From Desulfotalea psychrophila LSv54 (lineage in GTDB: Bacteria > Desulfobacterota > Desulfobulbia > Desulfobulbales > Desulfocapsaceae): DNA of 32,000 nt. Shown here piece after piece: positions 15,435-31,258 of this stretch. The DNA lies in assembly GCF_000025945.1 (NCBI RefSeq), contig NC_006138.1:2610001-2642000 (forward strand). The letters are read 5' to 3'. The position numbers were made by a program, and so were the translations under genes. The notes under the pieces were generated by a model. It ran no database searches and was not told where the DNA came from. It saw nothing but the letters and a program-made list of their open reading frames with translations. Numbering within the stretch: the first letter of the stretch is position 1; each line of letters begins with the position of its first letter.

Positions 15435-16526
15435 TTAGGCTGTCTCTCTGTCATACTCACCGATCATAGAAATTCGCCTATCCAGATCCTCGGGAGAGAG
15501 ATGAGAGAAGTTATTGAAGGGGACAGGACTGTCATTGGGAAAGGCCCTTTCGACAGCCATGATTTGCCTCCACAGGGCAAATACGGCATCTATGATTTTC
15601 CCCGGCAATTTACCCCCTCTATCCATGGCAAGAAGTTCCCGTACCTTCTCTTCGGGTATCGCCCCTTGGCGATATGGCCGGGTGGGATCAAGCATGGCAT
15701 CGATCATATCGGCGACCGAGGTAATCAATGCCTCAAAGGGAATATCATCCCCCTTCAGTCCATCCGGATAGCCCGATCCATCAAGCTTTTCGTGATGGAA
15801 GCGGGCTACATTATAGGCCATTATCATCACAGGTGACTGGATACCTTCGCCAATAATGTCGGCGCCGTGTAGGGTATGGGCCTGCATCTCTTGCCACATC
15901 TCCGGATTCTCCCTCAAATTGCCCGGAAAGAGCAGGATCTCATCCCGGACCCCTATCTTGCCAATATCGTGCAAAGGCGCCACGAGGAAGAGCCGGTAGG
16001 CCAGAAGCAGATCATACCCCAGATGTCTGGCGAGCAAATGGGTGATCACCGCTACCCGCAGGGTATGGTTTGCCGTCTCATTATCCTTGAGTTTGGCCGC
16101 TCTCATAAGGGACAGAAGTCCCTCAATAACGGCCGTATCTCTATCGATGAGCCTTAAATGGGTCGCCACCCGTGCCAGTAAAATAGGAGGCTCAATAGGC
16201 TTGGTAACATAGTCTACCGCCCCCAGATCGAATCCCCTCTTCTTGTCAGCAATTTCTCCCTTTGCCGTGACGAAGATTACCGGGATATTTACCGTGAGAG
16301 GATCTTTTTTTAAGAGCCGGCAAACCTCATAGCCATCCATCTCCGGCATCATAATATCAAGGAGGATGAGATCAGGCATATGTTTTACCGCCCCGGCCAG
16401 GGCGCTTTTCCCGCTATTGGCAAATTTAAGGTTGTAAGAATCTGCCAAAACCTGTTGCAACAGGCTTAGGTTATTGGGTTCATCATCAACAAGTAATATT
16501 GTGAAACCTTGTCTGTACATATTCAT
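15435..16526 (-). CDS. response regulator with HD-GYP domain (putative c-di-GMP phosphodiesterase, RpfG-like)
   Basis: REC domain (ILLVDDEP, DLILLDIMMPEMDG, phospho-acceptor Asp context, VTKP). HD-GYP domain (HDIGKIGV, HHEKLDGSGYPDGL). Its start codon overlaps the kinase stop (ATGA, 16523-16526). Confidence 0.9.
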   Translation of the reverse strand: MNMYRQGFTILLVDDEPNNLSLLQQVLADSYNLKFANSGKSALAGAVKHMPDLILLDIMMPEMDGYEVCRLLKKDPLTVNIPVIFVTAKGEIADKKRGFDLGAVDYVTKPIEPPILLARVATHLRLIDRDTAVIEGLLSLMRAAKLKDNETANHTLRVAVITHLLARHLGYDLLLAYRLFLVAPLHDIGKIGVRDEILLFPGNLRENPEMWQEMQAHTLHGADIIGEGIQSPVMIMAYNVARFHHEKLDGSGYPDGLKGDDIPFEALITSVADMIDAMLDPTRPYRQGAIPEEKVRELLAMDRGGKLPGKIIDAVFALWRQIMAVERAFPNDSPVPFNNFSHLSPEDLDRRISMIGEYDRETA

Positions 16527-19500
16527 CCCTCCAGCTGGATACCGAGTCTTTCGGCCAGGATTCGGGTTTGGGATTTGGCCCGGGCAAAATCAAACGCATC
16601 AATAGCCCTCCTGATATTGATCATATCATCCTGGGTAAGGTATTCGCCAAGTTTACTGAGTCCAGGTTCGGCGACGACCGGGTCGTCTTGATCAAGCATG
16701 ATCAGCAGTTCCTGAAGCAGGCTGCTAACAGCCTTAGAGTCAAACTCCGGGGTGGCAATCCTTGCCACAGGCATCTTCAGCTTTCTGATCACTACCGCCG
16801 CATTTTTCAGTGCCGCCTGCAGGCTGGGGAGCAGCGTTGCCGCTGGCTCATGACTGCCTGCCTTCAGTGCGGCGTTGATCTCTGTTGCCAGGCGGGCAAC
16901 TTCAGGCAGAGAGAGATTTCCGGCCAGACCCTTAAGGGTATGGGAAATCATCCTGGCCTCCTTACTATTCTCGTCCAGTAACTGCTGAATTTTTTCGGCA
17001 TCGGCTGAATGTCTATCGGCAAAGCTGGCAAGAGACTTGGCAAAGACCAGCGGATCCCGCCAGGAGGCAAGTCCCCTGTCAATGTCGACTACATCGGCCA
17101 GCGGGGTGAGGTCGATATCCTGCCGTGCCTGGTCGCCAGGGAAGGTCTCCTCATTTAGGCTGCCAATACCTTTAGGTACCACCCTCTCCATGGTGGCAAA
17201 AAGTCCTTCCAGTATAATGGGCTTACCGACAACCGCATCCATACCGGCTCTCATATATCTTTGCCGATCCTCCTTCATTATACTGGCCGTTAAGGCAATG
17301 ATTGTAATGTGCCCCTTTGATTCCCTTTCAAGGGCGCGAATTTTACGGGTTGCCTCTATCCCGTCCATTTCAGGCATCATCACATCCATAAGGATAAGAT
17401 CAAATGTGCCCCCCTTGTACATCTCTACTGCCTGACTACCGTTCCAGACATGTCTGACCCTATGCCCCTGCTGTTCCAGGCGCAACTGGGCCAGGGTGGC
17501 ATTTCCCGGCACATCTTCAGCCAGGAGAATTTGAAAACGGCGGGGCGACTCGGGCGAGGACGCTTCGCCTGTTAAGGCATGATCAACGCCGGTAGCCCTG
17601 CAGGGGCTTATTACCGGCAGCTGAGCCGTAAAATGGAATGTTACCCCCCTTCCCAGTTCACTCTCCACCCATATCCGTCCTCCCATAAGTTCGACAAGCT
17701 GTTTGCTAATGGTCAATCCCAGGCCGGTACCGCCGTAACAGCGGGCAGTGGAGATATCGGCCTGGGTAAAGGGATTGAAAATATTTGCTGCCTGCTCGGC
17801 TGTCATGCCAATTCCCCTATCTGCCACCGAGAAGTGGAGGGAGGCATCTCCCTGGTCCGAGGCCCTGACCCCTATGGTGATCTTGCCAGTTTTTGTGAAC
17901 TTGATCGCATTGCCGACTAAATTTATGATTACCTGACCTAGTCGGGTCGGATCTCCGAGATAACAGTGGGGAAGATCGGCGTCGAAATGAAAATCAAGGC
18001 CAATCCCCTTTTCCTCAGCCTGGGACTCCACTGTTTTTAAGGCCTCTTGGACTATCCTTGGCATATCGAGACAGGTAGCCTCAAGTGCGAACTCCCCGCT
18101 CTCCAGCTTACTGACATCCAAAATGTCGTTAATAATTATCAGTAAACCTTTGGCCGAACTGTACGCCGTCTCCAGATGTCTGCGCAGCTCTGCGCAGAGC
18201 AACCTGCTCTCCAGAGTGATCTGGATAAAGCCAAGCACCGAGTTCATCGGTGTACGAATTTCATGACTCATATTGGCAAGAAAGGCTGACTTGGCGATAT
18301 TGGCCGTTTCAGCAGCCTCTTTGGCTATTTTGAGTTCGTATGTTCTCTCTTCCACCAGCCGGGCAAGGTTGTCCCGATGTTTGCGGAGTGCCTCTTCGGC
18401 CCGGTTTATTTCGCTGAGATCCACTACCATGCCAACAAAAATCCGTTTTTCCAGCCTCACCTCACTGACGGAAAGATGCATTGGGAATTCCACCCCATCC
18501 TTTCTTACCCCTGTAAGCTTGTTACCTACTCCAATAGCCTTCATCCTGCCGGTCTTAAGATAATGATCGACATATTTATTATGACTTGAACGGTGGGGCT
18601 CAGGCATAAGCATCCGCACGTTTCGGCCAATAATTTCTTCTGGCCCATAGCCAAACATCTTTTCGGCTGACCGATTAAAGGACTGGACTATCCCTGTCTC
18701 ATCTATTGTGATGATGGGGATGACTGCCTTGTCAATAATTGCCTCTGCCCGAAGCTCACTTTTTCTCAGCTGAGCCGTCTTTTCTGCCACCTGCCATTCG
18801 ATCTCTGAGGTTCGTAGCGCATTATTTCGGAACTGCAGGGCAAGCAAGACTGTCAGGACAATACCAACAATAAAAACGGCCATTGCGCTGGGCGGAAAGC
18901 CCTGAATCTGCCCAGCCTCTGATGGGGACAGACATACCCTCCACTGCCGCCCTGCCACAGCGATCTCCCTGATGACATGAAGACCAGATGTCCGTATGCC
19001 CTCCTTGAAATATTGCTCACCGGGGCACTTTCCCCCAGCAGGGTAAATAAGTTCTGCACCATCATGGATATGCATCATAATATGAAACTGGCCGGGATCG
19101 ATTTGGGCAAGAGCCCTCTCGCCGATGGTATCGACGGCAAAAGCTGCCACCACAAAACCTCGCAGCGTCTCCCGCCGTTCGGCAATAGTGCTTGCGAGGC
19201 CTTGATAGACCGGTGCTACCACCAAAAAAGAAAAGCGCTTTTTCTTATGCTGCACCAAATGGATTACCTGCGATGCCGTGACCTTGCCACTATCACGGGC
19301 CTGCATAAGCATGGTTCGACGCTTTGGCTCAGAGCTAAGGTCAAAGCCAAAGGCGGCTCCGTTAACCCCTGTTGGCTCGATATAGAAAACGGGAAAATAC
19401 TTTTCTCTTACCCCTGCTCTGACCAGTTTTCCATTTTGCAGTTCACTAAAGCGAAAGCCGGACAGGCCGACGGCCCTTGCCTCGTCCACAAATTTAGCCC

Positions 19501-19831
19501 GCTGGGAGTTGGCAACCCTGGGAATCCATCCAAGCACATCCAGGCTGTTATCGACAACTTTTACGCTTTGAAACCAGAGACGAAATTCATATCGCTCAAC
19601 AAGATGCGAGGCATCGAAGAATGCCACCGCCGGTGTAAGGATGGAGAGATCAACCTCTATATCTCTCCTAATGGCGGCGGCCTGCCTGTCCGCCTCCCTC
19701 TGAAATTGGGCAATGGTGTTTTCGCTTACCTGCTGGTAATTGATATAGGCCATGATGCCTGACAGCAGCAGGCCCAGTATGATCGTTAACCATACGGACG
19801 CTCTGTTCCAGCCGTTTCTAAATTCTTTCAT
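16523..19831 (-). CDS. hybrid sensor histidine kinase: CHASE-TM-PAS-HisKA-HATPase-REC-Hpt
   Basis: 1102 aa. Periplasmic CHASE-like segment (YFPVFYIEP...[13 protein letters not shown]...ARDSG). A second TM helix, then PAS ([18 protein letters not shown]). H-box [14 protein letters not shown], then the N/G boxes ([24 protein letters not shown]). REC ([14 protein letters not shown]) and a C-terminal Hpt ([12 protein letters not shown]). Confidence 0.92.
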
Positions 19832-25919: not shown

Positions 25920-26509
25920 CTGCGCTCCCCCCTGTTTTTTTAGTTATAAATAATCTACTTAAGGTTTGGTAAGCTACAGCAGGGCAGCTGCCACCGGCAG
26001 TCTATCCTCGCACACATCCTGCCCACGGGATCGTTAATCCTATCATGGCAGACAGGCCCACAGCAAATCGTAAGTACCCTGACTAAGCATATGAAACTTC
26101 GACCTACGATTGCTAGGCCCCCCGCCAGTGATGGGGCTCTTTTAAGGACCGCTATGGGCGTGATGGTTGGGGGAGACATCCTGGAATGATTATTTGATGG
26201 AACTAAGGGCAAGCTAGGGGTATAGTCGGATATGCCCTGTCATTATAATGGGTTGTCTTGGCTGAATGGCCTGCTCTATCCCATGGATGACACGGAGACT
26301 CTGTTCTATGTCTGTTGCTTGATATTGGGATATATGGGAATGGGTAGCATGGAACAAAACTGTTATATCCGAAGACATATTCTTCTATATAGACACTGGA
26401 AAATAACAATAACCAGAATGAATGACAGCACAGTTATCTTATTTTTTAAGGGAAGGCATTCCCGTTCCAATTCTTGTGTTGGTGTTATCTATATTAATAA
26501 AATAATTAC

Positions 26510-27580
26510 ATGGAAGATACTTATAATATGATTGTTAAAATTCAAAAAGATAGCTCAAGACTTTCAAACAAAATAATCATTTATGCAATTGATGCAGGAG
26601 AAGGAGACTGTATACTGCTACATCAGCTAGATACTGACGTTAAAATATTAATCGATTCTGGGCCAAGTAAAGGAGAAGGAAGATTAAGTGTATATAATGC
26701 CCTATCTGAAATATTAGAAGGCGATAATTTCATTAATTTAGCGCTGGTAACCCATAATGATGATGACCATATAGGTGGTTTTATAGATTTGATTGATCAT
26801 AATATTATTGAGGTCGATACTTTCATATTCAATGATTCGTCTTATATAAAAAAACTCTTTCCCGTAAATGATGGTAAATACTCTTTAAGACAAGATGGAA
26901 ATCTACAACATGATATACTAAAGAATAAAATTAAACATTTACATAATCAAACTGACAGTGAAAGATTGAGCAGTTACTCTTACAGAGATTTCAAGTTTGA
27001 TTTTTTATCTCCAAACTATGAAAAACTTAAAATATACAATAGAGAAATAGGTAAACAGGAAACAAAACTTGAAAAAAAGAAGAAGTTTTCAAAACAAAAA
27101 AATATCGTCCCTCCCACTAAAGAACAACTCCAAGAACTAATCAGTGAACTAAAAGAGAACGATATTTTTGTTGAAGATAATAGACCAGCAAATGGCACTA
27201 GCTTAGCCTTTAGATTAAAAATTGGAACCAAGAGATTTCTTTTCTTAGGTGATTCGCATCCATCTTTAGTTACAACTCAACTGAAAAAATTGGAGGACAC
27301 TGTTTTTGATCTATGTAAATTATCACATCATGGAAGTGAAAAAAATACAAGCCCAGATTTACTTTCTAATATTAAATGTAAAGATTTCTTAATTTGTAGC
27401 AATGGTTGCAGGCATGGACATCCATCGCTAAAAACCATTGCAAGAGTTTTAATATCAGAGCCAAAATCTAAATTTTACTTTAGCTCAGACAGCGTCGAAA
27501 TTAAAAATTTAACAAATTCTATACCAATTATTAAGGAGTTTGCAAAATCTGGTTATTTAAAGGTTGAGTATGTGTATTAA
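26510..27580 (+). CDS. ComEC/Rec2-type MBL-fold hydrolase (candidate effector 1)
   Basis: 356 aa. IYAIDAGEGDCILLH...ILIDSGPS, then LALVTHNDDDHIGG (an HxDxDH variant of HxHxDH), FLGDSHP and KLSHHGSEKN are the ordered motifs of ComEC-like metallo-beta-lactamase domains. The alternative start is the ATG at 26528. Confidence 0.8.
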   Translation: MEDTYNMIVKIQKDSSRLSNKIIIYAIDAGEGDCILLHQLDTDVKILIDSGPSKGEGRLSVYNALSEILEGDNFINLALVTHNDDDHIGGFIDLIDHNIIEVDTFIFNDSSYIKKLFPVNDGKYSLRQDGNLQHDILKNKIKHLHNQTDSERLSSYSYRDFKFDFLSPNYEKLKIYNREIGKQETKLEKKKKFSKQKNIVPPTKEQLQELISELKENDIFVEDNRPANGTSLAFRLKIGTKRFLFLGDSHPSLVTTQLKKLEDTVFDLCKLSHHGSEKNTSPDLLSNIKCKDFLICSNGCRHGHPSLKTIARVLISEPKSKFYFSSDSVEIKNLTNSIPIIKEFAKSGYLKVEYVY

Positions 27581-28733
27581 TAACTATGCTGTGAGCGTAG
27601 AAGTTGCTGGACAGCAACCTCATGAAAGTAGTGGTTTTATTTTGAAAACTTTATGTAATTCAAAAAGTTTAATATTAACTTCAAAACATTCAGTTTGTAT
27701 AGAAAGAAACTTGTGCACAGACATTACCATTGATAAAAATAGTTGTAGAAAATGCAAAGCAAAACTTGATCACACCAAAATTTCTATTATCTTCAAAAAA
27801 ATTAAAATAACGCCACAAAACGTGTATGCCTCTGCAAGAACTGATGTTGCATTACTCGAGGTTGAATATGTAGAGGATGCTCCATTTCTTTCGCTAACAA
27901 ATGAAAATGAAAACAAGTATGTAGCTTGGTATAATTTGGGAAATGATCGATTTCTATTCGACAATCCAGAGATTCCAAATGATGGCCTTATCAAATTTAA
28001 CATTGCATCTAATGTAAATGCAGACTTAAAACCCAAAAAAAGAATGTTCGTGGGAGTTTCAGGTAGTCTAATCTTCAAAAAGATCAAAGAAACTTATTAC
28101 CCTGAAGCTATTCTTACAGAAGATGGGGGTGGTAATGACATTGGAGCAGAACAACTGGACAGAACACTTGTAAAGGAACTTGAAGAATTATCAGGTACAA
28201 TACTGTTCAATACTATAACTGATATAATTAACAAACAACCAGACAAAATACCCTCAACAAACAATGGCTCTTTATTTAATTTATTAGAAAAATCTAAGCA
28301 GTTATCTAGGTCAGACCAAGATTATAAATACATGATTGAAGAACTCACAGAGTTTTGCTCTGCCAGACCAGGAAGACCAATTATTGGACTCAAAAATAAG
28401 TTAATTGAAGGTCAAAGACAAGATTTGTTCTCAGATGCTGAATATTTGTCGAATAAATTTGCTAGACGTGTTTCAGCAGGACAGTTCTCCGCTACCGATG
28501 AAGTGATTTTCTTTCATTGTTTAAGTATGATTAATTCTGTTTTCACACAGTCTATTTCATCTTCAATAAAAAACGGAGCTAATGACAAGGAAATAGACAA
28601 AAAAATACTGGACGAAATAGTACTTCCACTATATTTAGAAGTAAGTAAGTTTGCACTTTCAATTTCTACAGAAATGATCACAGGAATGCTGTACTTTCTC
28701 ACAGGTAAATGCCATATAAGGTGGAATAAATGA
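27570..28733 (+). CDS. trypsin-like serine protease fused to a helical C-terminal domain (LmuA-like / ABC-3C effector component)
   Basis: Track ORF 27564..28733 has a TTG start. The ATG at 27570 follows aaagg. Triad-like motifs occur in the canonical order: LILTSKHSV (His), TDVALLEV (Asp), GVSGSLIF (Ser). A ~190-aa helix-rich C-terminal half follows. The start overlaps the upstream stop by 11 nt. Confidence 0.75.
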   Translation: MCINNYAVSVEVAGQQPHESSGFILKTLCNSKSLILTSKHSVCIERNLCTDITIDKNSCRKCKAKLDHTKISIIFKKIKITPQNVYASARTDVALLEVEYVEDAPFLSLTNENENKYVAWYNLGNDRFLFDNPEIPNDGLIKFNIASNVNADLKPKKRMFVGVSGSLIFKKIKETYYPEAILTEDGGGNDIGAEQLDRTLVKELEELSGTILFNTITDIINKQPDKIPSTNNGSLFNLLEKSKQLSRSDQDYKYMIEELTEFCSARPGRPIIGLKNKLIEGQRQDLFSDAEYLSNKFARRVSAGQFSATDEVIFFHCLSMINSVFTQSISSSIKNGANDKEIDKKILDEIVLPLYLEVSKFALSISTEMITGMLYFLTGKCHIRWNK

Positions 28734-29233
28734 TTATATACCATCCATATAAAGACGCCAACCATTGTGCATATCGTTTAATAAGCATTATGTATGGTAC
28801 AAACAATGCAGTTTCAAGAGATTTTCTCAATATAGCTGACTTCTATTATTTATTTCCAAGTAAATTAAAGGAAATCAACAATTGGCCTCGAAAAAATTCT
28901 AATGATTACAGAGCCGTTAAAGCAATTGAAAATTGCCATGAGAATCTTGATAATGCCAAAATGATATTTTATGAAATAAAGGAAATAAGACATAACACTT
29001 TCCTTAATTTAATATCAAGAGGAATCGTAATTGAAAGAAACAAGCACAATCAATTATATACCATGGAGCAATCTCTCCTGCCTGACTCTCTTATAGAATT
29101 GTTAAAAAAAGATGAATTTAGAGAATCTGAAGCTTACAGGATTATAACACAAAAAATGTCAAAAATACCATTGAATGGCGATACTGGATTAAAAGCTAAA
29201 ACAAGCTTGCTGGAGCATAGATATGACAATTAG
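28730..29233 (+). CDS. 167-aa helical protein, positional equivalent of LmuC / ABC-3C middle component
   Basis: ATGA overlap with the upstream gene (28730-28733) and an 11-nt overlap with the ATPase gene. I can recognise no catalytic motif. The assignment rests on size, position and operon context only. Confidence 0.6.
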   Translation: MIIYHPYKDANHCAYRLISIMYGTNNAVSRDFLNIADFYYLFPSKLKEINNWPRKNSNDYRAVKAIENCHENLDNAKMIFYEIKEIRHNTFLNLISRGIVIERNKHNQLYTMEQSLLPDSLIELLKKDEFRESEAYRIITQKMSKIPLNGDTGLKAKTSLLEHRYDN

Positions 29234-31124
29234 TAGATTAAAATTAAATCGTTTTTTGGTTATTCATGAGCAGCAGGCTATATATGATGAAACTTTCCAT
29301 GAAGGCATTAATGTCATCAGAGGAGAACACTCTGTTGGTAAATCAACACTTTTCGATTTAATTTATTATGTTTTGGGAGGTGATCTTAAAAAAGAAGAAT
29401 GGAGATATCCTACCAATGAGTGCACTGAGGTTCGCGCAGAAATCGAAATAAATAAAAAAACAATCACTCTCGCAAGAGAAATTTTAGCAGGTAAAAAACC
29501 AAAAATCAGGATGTTTGACGGTTGCTACGGAAAAGCTTTAAAAAACTATGGCAACTGGTTAAATTTTGGATCAGTACGATCTGATAATAAAGCTAGCTTT
29601 TCAGAAATGATGTTTGATTTATTTGGATGGGGACAACATAAGACAGAATCATTTAATAATTTAACAATGCACCAAATTTTAAGACTTTCCTACCTTAGTC
29701 AGTCATCAAAAACGACAAGCATATTCAGGGAGGAAATTGATAAACGCGGAGATAGCGGAAGTACTCGTAAAGCTATTGCAGAGTTTCTTTTAGGATTAGA
29801 TGACTTAACATCATATGATAAACGTCAAACAAAGGGTAAAAAACAGATAGAACTTGCAATATTTGAGGCAAACCGAGATAGTATCAAAAAAATTCTTGGT
29901 GATGACAGTGCCACTACTTTTAAAGATATAGAAACATTAATTAACTCAAAAAAATATATAATTTTTGATTTGATAGAAGAGAAAAACAACAAGTTGTCAC
30001 ATACTGATTCAAACAGCAACCATGCTATTGTTTTAAAAAGAGAAGAAATAATAACTACTATATCATATTATACAAAACTTATCAGTTTATCATTTAACAA
30101 AATTGAATTGATCCAAAGAGAAATTTCAGATTGTGATCTTTTCTCAAAAAGTCTTGAATTTAGAATAAAATCACTTGATGAATCTGAAAAAACATATAAA
30201 TCTCTAGGGAATATCTCTTTTAATTACTGTCCCTCTTGTTTCAGCCAACTCGACACAGTAGTTGCACATAACCAATGTAAACTTTGCAAAAAAATATTAC
30301 CTGATTATGATTTAACTGAAAAATACACAGAAACTCTTGCGGAGTTAAAATACCAGCAAAAGCAGAACACCAATACTATAAATAAGCTTCAAGTAGAATT
30401 GCAAAATAATGAAAATGAATACATAAAAAACAATGAAAAAGTAATGCTGCTACAAAATGAACTCAGCAATATCAGTACTCACTCAAACGAGAGAGAACTT
30501 ATAATCTCAAATTATACAAAAAGGATATCAAATGTTGAGTCAGGAATAATAGAATTGAATAAGAAAATCCCACTTATTCGGAATTTAGAAAAGTACAATA
30601 GAAGTATTTCTATAATTACAAAAGAGATATCTAAACTTGTGGAAGAAATAGATTCATTATCTGAACTCAGCAAAATTAGAAATAGGTCTGTTCTAAATAG
30701 TTTAGGTGAAACAGCTAGTGGGTTTTTAGAAAATGGGACTGGCAATGAAGAAGATTTCAAAATTGCTACTCAGAAAACAGTTGAAATTGATTTTGAAAAG
30801 GACAGATGGCTTCTTGGAGGCCGTATTAGTTTCTCAGAAAGCTCAAATGCTGAAAAAAAAAGTGCATTACATATTAGTTTTTTACTCCAGTCTCTTAAAG
30901 ATAAGCAAACACGTTATCCTCTTTTTTCGATTATGGACTTTGAATGTGCTGACTTAAACGAAGAGAGAAGCAAAAAAATACAAAATAATATCCTAAACTT
31001 ATTAAAAGATAAAGAAGGTTTCCAACTCTTAATAACATCATCCAAAATATCTCAGGAGCTTAATATTGAAGAATATGGGGTTGGACGTTATTACGGCAAA
31101 AATGATTACTTATTCAAAATCTAA
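29223..31124 (+). CDS. SMC/Rad50-like ABC ATPase with central coiled coil and four-Cys knuckle (LmuB-like / ABC-3C ATPase)
   Basis: 633 aa. The N-terminus is MTISRLKLNRF...INVIRGEHSVGKSTLFDLI (Walker A, Lys40), with a Q-loop-like YLSQ. About 300 aa of K/E/N/I/L-rich heptad-like sequence follow, with CPSC-x12-CKLC at aa 336-355. The C-terminus has a signature-like SESSNAEKKSAL, a Walker-B-like PLFSIMDFE and a D-loop-like ADL. Confidence 0.8.
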   Translation: MTISRLKLNRFLVIHEQQAIYDETFHEGINVIRGEHSVGKSTLFDLIYYVLGGDLKKEEWRYPTNECTEVRAEIEINKKTITLAREILAGKKPKIRMFDGCYGKALKNYGNWLNFGSVRSDNKASFSEMMFDLFGWGQHKTESFNNLTMHQILRLSYLSQSSKTTSIFREEIDKRGDSGSTRKAIAEFLLGLDDLTSYDKRQTKGKKQIELAIFEANRDSIKKILGDDSATTFKDIETLINSKKYIIFDLIEEKNNKLSHTDSNSNHAIVLKREEIITTISYYTKLISLSFNKIELIQREISDCDLFSKSLEFRIKSLDESEKTYKSLGNISFNYCPSCFSQLDTVVAHNQCKLCKKILPDYDLTEKYTETLAELKYQQKQNTNTINKLQVELQNNENEYIKNNEKVMLLQNELSNISTHSNERELIISNYTKRISNVESGIIELNKKIPLIRNLEKYNRSISIITKEISKLVEEIDSLSELSKIRNRSVLNSLGETASGFLENGTGNEEDFKIATQKTVEIDFEKDRWLLGGRISFSESSNAEKKSALHISFLLQSLKDKQTRYPLFSIMDFECADLNEERSKKIQNNILNLLKDKEGFQLLITSSKISQELNIEEYGVGRYYGKNDYLFKI

Positions 31125-31258
31125 ACAGCAAAAAAATAATTAGCCCAGATAACAAACACAGGCAGAAGAGTATAAAGAGCCGCTTCTGAAGTACAAAAGT
31201 TTTCGGGAGCGGCAATGTTGCAAAGATCAAATAAGTTAAAGAGGACACAGAAAAAGCA

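What the first reader, a model, noticed from the sequence alone, without database searches (positions are those of the whole stretch)
29223..31124. SMC/Rad50-like ATPase with an intramolecular four-Cys knuckle at the coiled-coil midpoint and non-canonical C-terminal motifs
Cys336, Cys339, Cys352 and Cys355 (CPSC-x12-CKLC, nt 30228-30290) sit almost exactly halfway through the 633-aa protein, inside the heptad-rich region. This is where Rad50 carries its CxxC zinc hook. Here one chain supplies all four ligands, so the element may be a zinc-stabilised apex or hinge rather than a dimerising hook.

The C-terminal ATPase half also looks unusual:
- The signature is SESSNAEKK instead of LSGG-type.
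- Walker B reads SIMDFE, with Asp and Glu separated by Phe.
- The strand where an H-loop His is expected reads QLLITSSK, with no His.

This could mean slow or regulated hydrolysis, acting as a switch rather than a motor.
Basis: partly seen in the sequence, partly recalled or inferred. Interest (0 to 1): 0.65.

Follow-up and report, generated by a model that had tools for sequence, protein, structure and literature searches.

The report
Lamassu sensor ATPase, four-cysteine arm tip
The gene encodes LmuB, the DNA-sensing SMC/Rad50-like ATPase of a four-gene Lamassu anti-phage system; its four-cysteine arm tip and odd ATPase motifs are real and strongly conserved, but this variation in LmuB is already broadly described in print.

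Summary
The ORF (29223-31124, 633 aa) is the LmuB ATPase of a short-type Lamassu (ABC-3C) defence operon on a low-GC island. Its partners are an MBL-fold hydrolase, a trypsin-fold protease fused to a CTD9 domain (LmuA), and an MC5 protein (LmuC).

Solved Lamassu LmuB structures are the best fold matches. AlphaFold2 places the CPSC-x12-CKLC cluster in a 36-residue non-helical mini-domain at the tip of a 134/139-residue antiparallel arm.

The four Cys are present in 143-144 of 144 representatives (median 26% identity). F-S-x-S-S, D-h-E and the His-less Q-x-I-x-T-T-S are fixed in the same set. The Salmonella-type LmuB differs: one CPxCG hook, D-Q, and a retained H-loop His.

Published work already reports 0, 1 or 2 CxxC copies and deviant Walker B motifs in short LmuB, plus slow ATP hydrolysis. 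This is therefore a new member of a known kind. What remains untested is whether the two CxxC form one intramolecular zinc ribbon, which I favour at about 0.65.

Side observation: most relatives lack an effector domain but carry a conserved small membrane-protein gene upstream.

The parts
26510..27580 (+). MBL-fold hydrolase, the accessory effector of the Lamassu hydrolase-protease subtype; motif H-N-D-D-D-H at nt 26753-26770
   Evidence: Pfam Lactamase_B 5e-8. PADLOC LmuA model PDLC03854 1.9e-63. NCBIfam Avs1a-like 1.8e-44, below its cut-off. The same gene sits in the same position in Vibrio vulnificus, Arcobacteraceae and Photobacterium loci.
27564..28733 (+). LmuA: trypsin-fold serine protease domain (res 1-~218; His42, Asp94, Ser166) fused to the CTD9 adaptor domain (res ~275-387). 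The real start is probably the ATG at 27570.
   Evidence: Pfam CTD9 PF20285 2e-31. PADLOC LmuA PDLC03855 3e-10. AF2 N-domain pLDDT 70-90, and Foldseek hits V8/Esp/DegQ proteases at E~1e-9, TMt ~0.6. H42, D94, S166 and M3 are invariant in alignment A4.
28730..29233 (+). LmuC, the ABC-3C middle component MC5
   Evidence: Pfam MC5 PF20291 2e-31. Its start overlaps the LmuA stop and its stop overlaps the LmuB start. An MC5 gene lies directly upstream of the LmuB homologue in 79 of 80 genome loci.
29223..31124 (+). LmuB, the SMC/Rad50-like ABC ATPase and sensor subunit (the finding)
   Evidence: PADLOC LmuB 5e-30 over the full length. AF2 pLDDT 87. Foldseek top hits are solved LmuB chains, E 1e-17 to 4e-13.
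29322..29348 (+). Walker A / P-loop, GEHSVGKST (res 34-42, Lys40)
   Evidence: G39 and K40 are invariant.
29673..29675 (+). Candidate Q-loop Gln151
   Evidence: Invariant in alignment A1 and 138/144 in representatives. The Q-loop assignment is inferred from its position in the ABC head.
29805..30206 (+). Ascending coiled-coil arm (res 195-328), with helix breaks at 231-232 and 261-266
   Evidence: DSSP on the AF2 model. The 261-266 / 420-422 breaks match folding point FP1 (aa 266-276 and 416-432) described for Salmonella LmuB.
30207..30314 (+). Apex mini-domain (res 329-364): two Cys knuckles, C336-P-S-C339 and C352-K-L-C355, each flanked by beta-bridges (335/342 and 351/358). Predicted Cys4 zinc ribbon.
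   Evidence: AF2 secondary structure, local pLDDT 66-77. Cys invariance. Sub-threshold hits only to zinc-ribbon/RING families, DZR in 15/32 members. 11/200,000 shuffles.
30315..30731 (+). Descending coiled-coil arm (res 365-503), with a break at 420-422
   Evidence: DSSP on the AF2 model.
30831..30845 (+). Degenerate ABC signature, F537-S538-E-S540-S541, at the N-cap of helix 539-559
   Evidence: S540 is invariant; S538 and S541 are at least 86% conserved. The motif aligns with the S536-G-S-N signature of Salmonella LmuB.
30924..30944 (+). Walker B strand F-S-I-M-D572, then F573 and E574 (a D-h-E variant)
   Evidence: The AF2 strand 568-572 ends at D572. D572 is 144/144, position 573 is always I/V/M/T/L/F, and E574 is 142/144. 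D572 aligns with the Asp of FLILDQ in Salmonella LmuB.
31023..31046 (+). H-loop-equivalent strand Q601-L-L-I-T-S-S607-K, with Ser where the switch His is expected
   Evidence: AF2 strand 601-606. Family consensus is Q-x-I-x-T-T-S-[MK] with no His. Salmonella-type LmuB has Q-L-I-V-L-D-H at the same place.

Best explanation
The ORF is LmuB, the sensor ATPase of a short-type Lamassu (ABC-3C) abortive-infection system. The operon is MBL hydrolase - protease::CTD9 (LmuA) - MC5 (LmuC) - LmuB.

Mechanism, by analogy with solved Lamassu complexes (inferred, not shown here): an LmuB dimer with LmuC holds an LmuA monomer inactive near the arm tip. DNA ends or replication intermediates bind the ATP-engaged LmuB heads. 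LmuA is then released and self-associates, which switches on the protease and, with it or through it, the MBL hydrolase. The infected cell dies.

The four Cys most likely bind one Zn within a single chain, forming a small zinc-ribbon cap that closes the antiparallel arm. In this clade that cap would replace the Rad50-style two-chain hook and provide part of the surface where MC5 and CTD9 dock.

The head keeps what is needed for ATP binding and head engagement: Walker A Lys40, Gln151, signature Ser538 and Walker B Asp572. The catalytic Glu is shifted one residue (D-F-E) and the H-loop His is replaced by Ser. I predict slow, DNA-gated hydrolysis that resets a switch rather than drives a motor.
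For: - Operon identity: Pfam CTD9 and MC5 (2e-31 each); PADLOC LmuA and LmuB models.
- Translational coupling: the genes overlap each other.
- Horizontal acquisition: low-GC island, 31% against ~47%.
- Fold: AF2 pLDDT 87; Foldseek top hits are the LmuB chains 9hqu/9hqx/9uxh/9nyg/9ux7, then Rad50.
- Apex position and beta-bridge pattern of the Cys segment.
- Near-absolute Cys conservation, with a spacer of 11-20 residues.
- Conserved hydrophobic positions F333, L/F340, I/V/L343 and L354 around the knuckles.
- Only zinc-binding families hit the apex fragments.
- MC5 in 79/80 and CTD9 in 78/80 loci directly upstream of four-Cys LmuB genes.
- In Salmonella LmuACB, LmuC and the LmuA CTD sit at the hook region.
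- V. cholerae LmuB has no hook yet still forms the B2 dimer.
- Published LmuB turnover is ~1 ATP/min, and defence needs Walker A and the signature Ser.
- Protease fold and catalytic triad of LmuA.
Against: - No metal, oligomer or activity data exist for this clade.
- The AF2 run was a monomer, so it could only return an intramolecular arrangement. Local pLDDT is moderate (66-77).
- No coordinates were available, so Cys-Cys distances and the reach of Glu574 to the gamma-phosphate could not be measured.
- The zinc-ribbon profile hits are all below the Pfam thresholds.
- The invariant Glu574 could restore normal catalysis, so 'slow hydrolysis' is not assured.
- According to PMC12663957, no short-type hydrolase-protease Lamassu has been experimentally validated. 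The validated hydrolase-protease system (B. cereus B4077) is long-type.
Confidence: 0.72

Rival explanations
1. Double intermolecular hook. Each CxxC pairs with a CxxC of the second LmuB protomer, giving two Rad50-like zinc bridges per dimer and a reinforced dimerisation hook.
For: LmuB descends from Rad50/SbcC-like hook proteins, and single-hook LmuBs juxtapose their hooks in the dimer. hhalign maps the Salmonella hook onto the second CxxC, so at least that knuckle is homologous to a dimerising hook. The hook is needed for defence in Salmonella LmuACB.
Against: CPxC...CxxC with an 11-20 residue spacer and flanking beta-bridges is the standard one-chain zinc-ribbon layout. The segment is a 36-residue mini-domain with its own conserved hydrophobic positions, not a bare turn. 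Hook-less LmuB still dimerises.
Confidence: 0.2
2. Rubredoxin-like iron or redox-sensing site. The Cys4 centre binds Fe, or forms reversible disulfides, and couples Lamassu activation to redox state or metal availability.
For: CxxC...CPxC pairs also define rubredoxins. One weak rubredoxin-type hit appears among the apex fragments (RUBY_RBDX in 2/32; PDB rubredoxin 2pya at E 0.21).
Against: The hits are weaker and rarer than the zinc-ribbon hits. The homologous element in relatives is a zinc hook. Nothing redox-related sits in the operon.
Confidence: 0.05
3. A housekeeping DNA-repair ATPase (Rad50/SbcC/RecN-type) rather than an immune sensor.
For: Weak N-terminal matches to Rad50, RecN and SMC models.
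Against: All of these are far below the curated cut-offs. There is no Mre11/SbcD partner. The gene is embedded with CTD9 and MC5 genes on a low-GC island. Homologues sit beside CBASS, restriction-modification, BREX-like and prophage genes. The best fold matches are Lamassu LmuB.
Confidence: 0.02

Closest known systems
Salmonella enterica LmuB (DUF3732 type; PDB 9hqu/9hqx, LmuACB cryo-EM)
   Same: Best sequence-profile and fold match. Same length class (~630-660 aa). Same head-arm-tip architecture, with a helix break at the same place as folding point FP1. Ser-rich signature (S-G-S-N against S-x-S-S-N). Walker B Asp in the same P-x-F-h-h-h-D context. Partnered by LmuC and a CTD-bearing LmuA.
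   Different: Only ~14% identity. The Salmonella type has a single CP[MV]CG hook, Walker B D-Q-P-S-Q, and keeps the H-loop His (Q-L-I-V-L-D-H). The window protein has two CxxC motifs, D-F-E and T-S-S in place of the His. The partner families differ (MC5/CTD9 here), and the effector is a protease plus MBL hydrolase rather than a nuclease.
Vibrio cholerae DdmC (LmuB of Lamassu Vc-Cap4; PDB 9nyg, 9uxh)
   Same: Short Lamassu LmuB and a top fold match. It shows that an LmuB dimer can form without an intermolecular zinc hook.
   Different: It has no CxxC at all, and its effector is a Cap4 nuclease.
Rad50 / SbcC zinc hook
   Same: ABC head, antiparallel coiled coil and a Cys motif at the tip. This is the proposed evolutionary ancestor of LmuB (PMC12663957).
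   Different: Rad50 contributes one CxxC per chain, so that two chains share one Zn. It also has much longer arms, a canonical D-E Walker B with an H-loop His, and an Mre11/SbcD partner. None of these holds here.
[quoted passage not shown]
   Same: That survey reports short LmuBs with 0, 1 or 2 CxxC copies, variable Walker B motifs and this effector combination. The window system fits those descriptions.
   Different: The paper gives Walker B of short LmuB as hhhhD[Q/S/T/E]; here it is hhhhD-[I/V/M/F]-E. The paper draws no structural conclusion about the two-copy form and does not mention loss of the H-loop His. I could not view its figures, so I cannot assign the window protein to one of its lettered clades.
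'Effector-less' short Lamassu (Clade O of PMC12663957)
   Same: Most relatives of the window LmuB have a ~190-aa LmuA that is CTD9 only (64 of 78 loci). This matches the published description of a clade that 'seemingly lost the effector domain'.
   Different: The window system has a full protease effector plus the MBL gene. The identity with Clade O is inferred from the description, not checked against the paper's table.

Membership tests
Lamassu / ABC-3C LmuB (short type) | ABC/SMC-type head with Walker A Gx4GK[ST] | tested here: met
   GEHSVGKST, with G39 and K40 invariant.
Lamassu / ABC-3C LmuB (short type) | Coiled-coil insertion between the head halves; total length ~600 aa (short type) | tested here: met
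   633 aa; helical arms 195-328 and 365-503 in the AF2 model. Short LmuB average ~600 aa.
Lamassu / ABC-3C LmuB (short type) | Sequence match to curated LmuB models | tested here: met
   PADLOC LmuB PDLC03863 at 5e-30 and PDLC03859 at 1e-29, both near full length.
Lamassu / ABC-3C LmuB (short type) | Structural similarity to solved LmuB | tested here: met
   Foldseek ranks 1 and 3-8 are LmuB chains, E 1e-17 to 4e-13, probability 1.0.
Lamassu / ABC-3C LmuB (short type) | Adjacent middle component (LmuC) and an effector with an ABC-3C C-terminal domain (LmuA) | tested here: met
   MC5 PF20291 and CTD9 PF20285, each 2e-31, in overlapping upstream genes. Conserved in 79/80 and 78/80 related loci.
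Lamassu / ABC-3C LmuB (short type) | Published short-type Walker B consensus hhhhD[Q/S/T/E] | tested here: not met
   Here it is S-I-M-D-F-E; the clade consensus is hhhhD-[I/V/M/F/T/L]-E. This is a descriptive consensus of a survey rather than a defining trait. It marks the clade as a variant and does not exclude membership.
Lamassu / ABC-3C LmuB (short type) | Confers anti-phage or anti-plasmid defence that depends on the ATPase and the effector | not testable with these tools
   Needs plaque assays. The defence context of homologues (CBASS, RM, BREX-like, prophage neighbours) is supportive only.
Rad50 / SbcC | Single CxxC hook per chain that shares one Zn between two chains | tested here: not met
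   Two CxxC motifs 12 residues apart, conserved as a pair. Metal sharing itself is not testable here.
Rad50 / SbcC | Mre11/SbcD nuclease partner gene | tested here: not met
   The neighbours are MBL, protease-CTD9 and MC5; no calcineurin-like phosphoesterase is present.
Rad50 / SbcC | Canonical Walker B D-E and H-loop His; curated model score | tested here: not met
   D-F-E and no His. NCBIfam Rad50 models score 16-18 bits against a cut-off of 1000.
Cys4 zinc ribbon | Two Cys knuckles (CPxC / CxxC), each on a beta-hairpin, within one chain | tested here: inconclusive
   The motif and the predicted beta-bridges fit. Pfam zinc-ribbon models hit only below threshold (DZR best 1.2e-3, 15/32 members). 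No coordinates were available and no metal data exist.
Chymotrypsin/trypsin-fold serine protease (for LmuA) | Two-barrel fold with a His-Asp-Ser triad | tested here: met
   Foldseek hits V8/Esp/DegQ at E~1e-9. H42, D94 and S166 (in G-x-S-G-S) are invariant. Pfam Trypsin_2 scores only 0.006, below threshold.

The most novel reading that the evidence does not exclude
In this large LmuB clade the ancestral two-chain Rad50-type zinc hook has been rebuilt into a one-chain Cys4 zinc-ribbon cap. That cap no longer dimerises the arms and instead serves as the docking or release platform for MC5 and CTD9. The same clade has also rewired catalysis: the Glu is moved to Walker B +2 and the H-loop His is lost. 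Together these would define a mechanistically distinct Lamassu sensor whose partners include a protease/MBL pair or, in most relatives, a small trans-encoded membrane protein as the killing effector.
Probability: 0.4. Interest if true: 0.5.

Novelty: new member of a known kind. Interest (0 to 1): 0.3.

Why it matters
Lamassu is one of the most widespread bacterial defence families. How its SMC-like sensor holds and releases very different effectors is only now being solved, and only for nuclease-bearing systems with zero or one hook motif.

This window gives a clean example of the two-CxxC, MC5/CTD9-linked clade, with a protease plus MBL effector pair. At least 626 clusters at 50% identity score E<=1e-30 against its profile, and at least 417 species genomes carry a relative.

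If the four Cys form a one-chain zinc ribbon, a dimerisation device inherited from a DNA-repair ancestor has been converted into a structural or docking module. The fixed D-h-E / His-less active site would be a natural experiment on how much ATP hydrolysis a Lamassu switch needs.

None of this overturns current understanding. It refines a published survey-level observation and points to specific mutants to test.

Tried and rejected
- Single-sequence search against PDB sequences gave only marginal Rad50 P-loop hits. The profile search and the fold search were needed to reach LmuB.
- The Krishnan et al. 2020 ABC-3C paper could not be read. No supplementary text of PMC12663957 is held. I therefore could not check which lettered clade carries two CxxC, or whether small membrane effectors were described there.
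- Exact look-up of the window's LmuB in the assembly index found nothing. The genome scan's best hit was only 53% identical, so the source organism stays unidentified.
- No tRNA gene is in the window. Repeats flanking the low-GC island look like chance AT-rich matches. Promoter-like and terminator-like sites are not enriched over shuffles. The island boundaries are therefore defined by composition only.
- Searching with the Salmonella LmuB fragment returned only C-terminal fragments of 403 aa or less. That was enough for motif comparison. It was not enough to align the ascending arm and decide firmly which of the two CxxC is ancestral.
- My regular expression for Walker B in the 80 genome loci failed in 64 cases. 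I rely on the alignment-based counts instead.
- The housekeeping Rad50/RecN reading was rejected (see rivals).
- Disulfide-only and Fe-S cluster readings were considered. I judged them unlikely for a cytoplasmic CPxC...CxxC pair whose homologue is a zinc hook.
Full report
**1. The observation**

The ORF at 29223-31124 (+) is real and translates to 633 aa.
- Cys336, Cys339, Cys352 and Cys355 (CPSC-x12-CKLC, nt 30228-30287)
- SESSNAEKK at 538-546
- SIMDFE at 569-574
- QLLITSSK at 601-608

No His lies beyond residue 550. A CxxC-x8-22-CxxC pattern arose in only 11 of 200,000 shuffles of this protein.

**2. Genomic setting**

The gene is the last of four co-directional, overlapping genes (26510-31124). 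They sit on a 31% GC island in a ~47% GC background. The four products are:
- An MBL-fold hydrolase: PADLOC LmuA model PDLC03854 at 1.9e-63, Avs1a-like.
- A 389-aa protein with a C-terminal CTD9 domain (PF20285, 2e-31).
- An MC5 'middle component' (PF20291, 2e-31).
- The ATPase, which matches PADLOC LmuB models over its full length (5e-30).

The 389-aa protein has an N-terminal domain that folds as a V8/Esp/DegQ-like serine protease. Its His42, Asp94 and Ser166 are invariant.

This is the ABC-3C / Lamassu architecture. [quoted passage not shown] The flanking genes are ordinary: DJ-1/PfpI, glyoxalase, an MBL, and a LigT-like 2',5'-RNA ligase family protein. No tRNA gene, integrase gene or convincing flanking repeat was found.

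**3. The protein itself**

AlphaFold2 on a 72-sequence alignment gave mean pLDDT 87. The model has these parts:
- An N-terminal head half.
- An ascending arm, helices 195-230, 233-260 and 267-328.
- A 36-residue non-helical segment, 329-364, with isolated beta-bridges at 335, 342, 351 and 358. These bracket the two CxxC knuckles. Local pLDDT is 66-77.
- A descending arm, helices 365-419 and 423-503.
- The C-terminal head half.

The arms are 134 and 139 residues long, so the Cys cluster is at the tip. Helix breaks at 261-266 and 420-422 coincide with folding point FP1 (aa 266-276 and 416-432) seen in the Salmonella LmuACB cryo-EM structure.

Foldseek against the PDB returns LmuB chains as the best matches: 9hqu, 9hqx, 9uxh, 9nyg and 9ux7, at E 1e-17 to 4e-13. 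One YydD model ranks among them, followed by Rad50, SMC and JetC. A profile search of PDB sequences also puts 9hqu first.

**4. Conservation**

In 115 full-length homologues (25-66% identity), C336, P337, C339 and C352 are invariant and C355 is 113/115.

A full HMMER scan of 1.84 billion representatives found 3,973 proteins at E<=1e-3 and 626 at E<=1e-30. Among the best 144 full-length ones (median 26% identity):
- The four Cys are 143-144/144.
- The spacer between the two CxxC is 11-20 residues (mode 12).
- L354 is conserved as L or V.

The 'odd' catalytic motifs are fixed in the same set:
- The signature is [F/Y]-S-x-S-S, with S540 144/144.
- Walker B is hhhhD572 (144/144), then I/V/M/T/L/F, then E574 (142/144).
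- The H-loop strand is Q601 (144/144)-x-I-x-T-T-S-[M/K], with no His.

So no better alignment rescues canonical motifs. They are clade characters.

**5. Clade-specific or general to LmuB?**

The Salmonella-type LmuBs (DUF3732) retrieved with the 9hqu fragment differ. They have a single CP[MV]CG hook, signature G-S-G-S-N-W, Walker B hhhhD-Q-P-S-Q-V-Y-F-P, and a retained His in Q-L-I-V-L-D-H-A.

Profile-profile alignment (96% probability) gave these equivalences:
- The single Salmonella hook maps onto the second CxxC here (C352/C355).
- Their S-G-S-N maps onto S538-x-S-S.
- Their Walker B Asp maps onto D572. Beyond that point the families diverge.

Three conclusions follow:
- The Ser-rich signature is the normal LmuB form. 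The Ser equivalent to S538 is essential for defence in Salmonella (S536R).
- The shifted Glu and the lost His are specific to this clade.
- The upstream CPxC knuckle looks like the addition. This last point is tentative, because only C-terminal fragments were available for the comparison.

**6. Partners across the clade**

A scan of species-representative genomes found 417 with a relative, spread over many phyla. In the 80 loci kept, HMMs that I built from the window and seven earlier loci gave these counts:
- MC5 directly upstream in 79/80.
- CTD9 upstream of MC5 in 78/80. The two exceptions (L042, L088) are truncated by contig ends.
- The four-Cys motif in 78 of 79 LmuBs.
- The MBL + protease pair of the window in only 3 loci (an Arcobacteraceae MAG and two Photobacterium).
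- A CTD9 protein of only 175-225 aa in 64 of 78.

The four-Cys LmuB is therefore tightly coupled to MC5 and CTD9 but not to any one effector. This fits the idea that the tip domain co-evolves with the subunits that dock there in the solved complexes.

**7. What is already known**

- PMC12663957 states that short LmuBs carry zero, one or two CxxC copies. It suggests 'divergent dimerization strategies' and gives Walker B as hhhhD[Q/S/T/E] in short systems.
- The 2023 review notes that many but not all LmuBs have a CPxCG hook, and that Walker B usually carries E-to-Q.
- Two cryo-EM preprints show juxtaposed hooks with unresolved Zn. They also report hook-dependent defence and ~1 ATP/min DNA-stimulated hydrolysis.
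- V. cholerae LmuB has no hook yet still dimerises.

I did not find three things in these texts:
- An explicit proposal that the two-copy form is a one-chain Cys4 ribbon.
- The D-h-E arrangement.
- The loss of the H-loop His.

**8. Mechanism: shown and inferred**

Shown here:
- Identity as LmuB.
- Operon composition.
- Apex position of the Cys cluster in a confident model.
- Deep conservation of the Cys cluster and the motifs.
- Coupling to MC5 and CTD9.
- The protease fold of LmuA.

Inferred from solved homologues:
- Sequestration of LmuA by LmuB2-LmuC.
- DNA-end sensing by ATP-engaged heads.
- Release and oligomerisation of the effector.
- Abortive infection.

Inferred from motif logic:
- ATP binding and head engagement are retained (K40, Q151, S538, D572).
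- Hydrolysis is slow or gated because the Glu is displaced and the His is absent.
- The invariant E574 may still act as the base.

Intramolecular against intermolecular zinc remains open. I put about 0.65 on the one-chain ribbon. The reasons are the knuckle spacing, the beta-bridge pattern, the mini-domain with its own hydrophobic positions, hits only to zinc ribbons, and the precedent of hook-less dimers. The monomer-only prediction cannot exclude a double intermolecular hook.

**9. Verdict**

The object is a new member of a known kind: a short Lamassu of the hydrolase-protease subtype with a two-CxxC LmuB. Interest is modest. It offers concrete, testable refinements (Cys4 ribbon, D-h-E / His-less active site) rather than a surprise.

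**10. Side finding**

One observation in related loci may deserve more attention than the finding itself. The 'effector-less' relatives almost always (64 of 67) carry a conserved small ORF directly upstream of the short CTD9 gene. It encodes a membrane protein of one of two types:
- ~95-125 aa, with 1-2 hydrophobic helices and a beta-helix-like tail.
- ~55-65 aa, with one helix and a G-G-D-x-x-G-R-D-type tail.

The published text describing that clade mentions no membrane protein.

Noticed in passing
Related loci, e.g. L016 4544-4900, L001 4583-4915 (P. aeruginosa), L009 3584-3946, L053 4739-4915: Relatives with a CTD9-only ('effector-less') LmuA carry a conserved small ORF directly upstream in 64 of 67 loci, in two sequence clusters of 32. 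One type is ~95-125 aa with 1-2 hydrophobic helices and an Asn/Gly-rich beta-helix-like tail. The other is ~55-65 aa with one hydrophobic helix and a GGDxxGRDxxK-type tail. It may be a trans-encoded membrane effector. The paper describing an effector-less clade never uses the word 'membrane'.
   Followed up: partly
window 27696-27755 (LmuA residues Cys45, Cys51, Cys61, Cys64): The protease domain of LmuA has its own invariant four-Cys insert (C-x5-C-x9-C-x2-C) between the catalytic His42 and Asp94. It is kept in all protease-bearing homologues, with a shorter spacer in the Vibrio type. It could be a second metal site or a disulfide pair. The AF2 model is poorly confident there (residues 53-59 have pLDDT <50).
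   Followed up: partly
window 26753-26770: The MBL-fold hydrolase has H-N-D-D-D-H where the classical metallo-beta-lactamase motif is HxHxDH. Its best named relatives are Avs1a and ComEC-type MBL domains. From memory this resembles the nuclease-type MBL branch; I did not test that.
   Followed up: no
window 27564-27572: The listed TTG start of LmuA is probably wrong. Homologues begin at the ATG two codons downstream (27570), where Met3 is invariant. That start still overlaps the MBL gene's stop at 27580.
   Followed up: yes
window ~26200-31150: The whole Lamassu block is a 29-37% GC island in a 43-54% GC neighbourhood. It is inserted between a DJ-1/PfpI gene and a LigT-like gene. No integrase, tRNA or convincing flanking repeat is present, so how it was acquired is not visible.
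   Followed up: partly
L001 8900-13920; L005 759-2469; L007 7974-10563; L003 1-3433: Homologous systems sit in typical defence or mobile contexts: next to a Pf-like filamentous prophage (Zot, coat B) in P. aeruginosa, next to a CBASS (CD-NTase + Cap15) in V. vulnificus, next to a restriction-modification pair in an Arcobacteraceae MAG, and next to BrxC/helicase and Tn7-like genes in Leisingera.
   Followed up: no
window 30003-30020 and 30480-30488 (LmuB residues 261-266 and 420-422): Paired helix breaks in the two arms of the AF2 model coincide with the 'folding point 1' elbow reported for Salmonella LmuB (aa 266-276 and 416-432). This suggests the folded-back arm conformation is conserved in this distant clade.
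   Followed up: partly
window 15435-19831 (- strand): A CHASE-PAS hybrid histidine kinase with an Hpt domain (1102 aa) lies beside a response regulator with an HD-type output domain (363 aa). This is an ordinary two-component pair unrelated to the finding.
   Followed up: no
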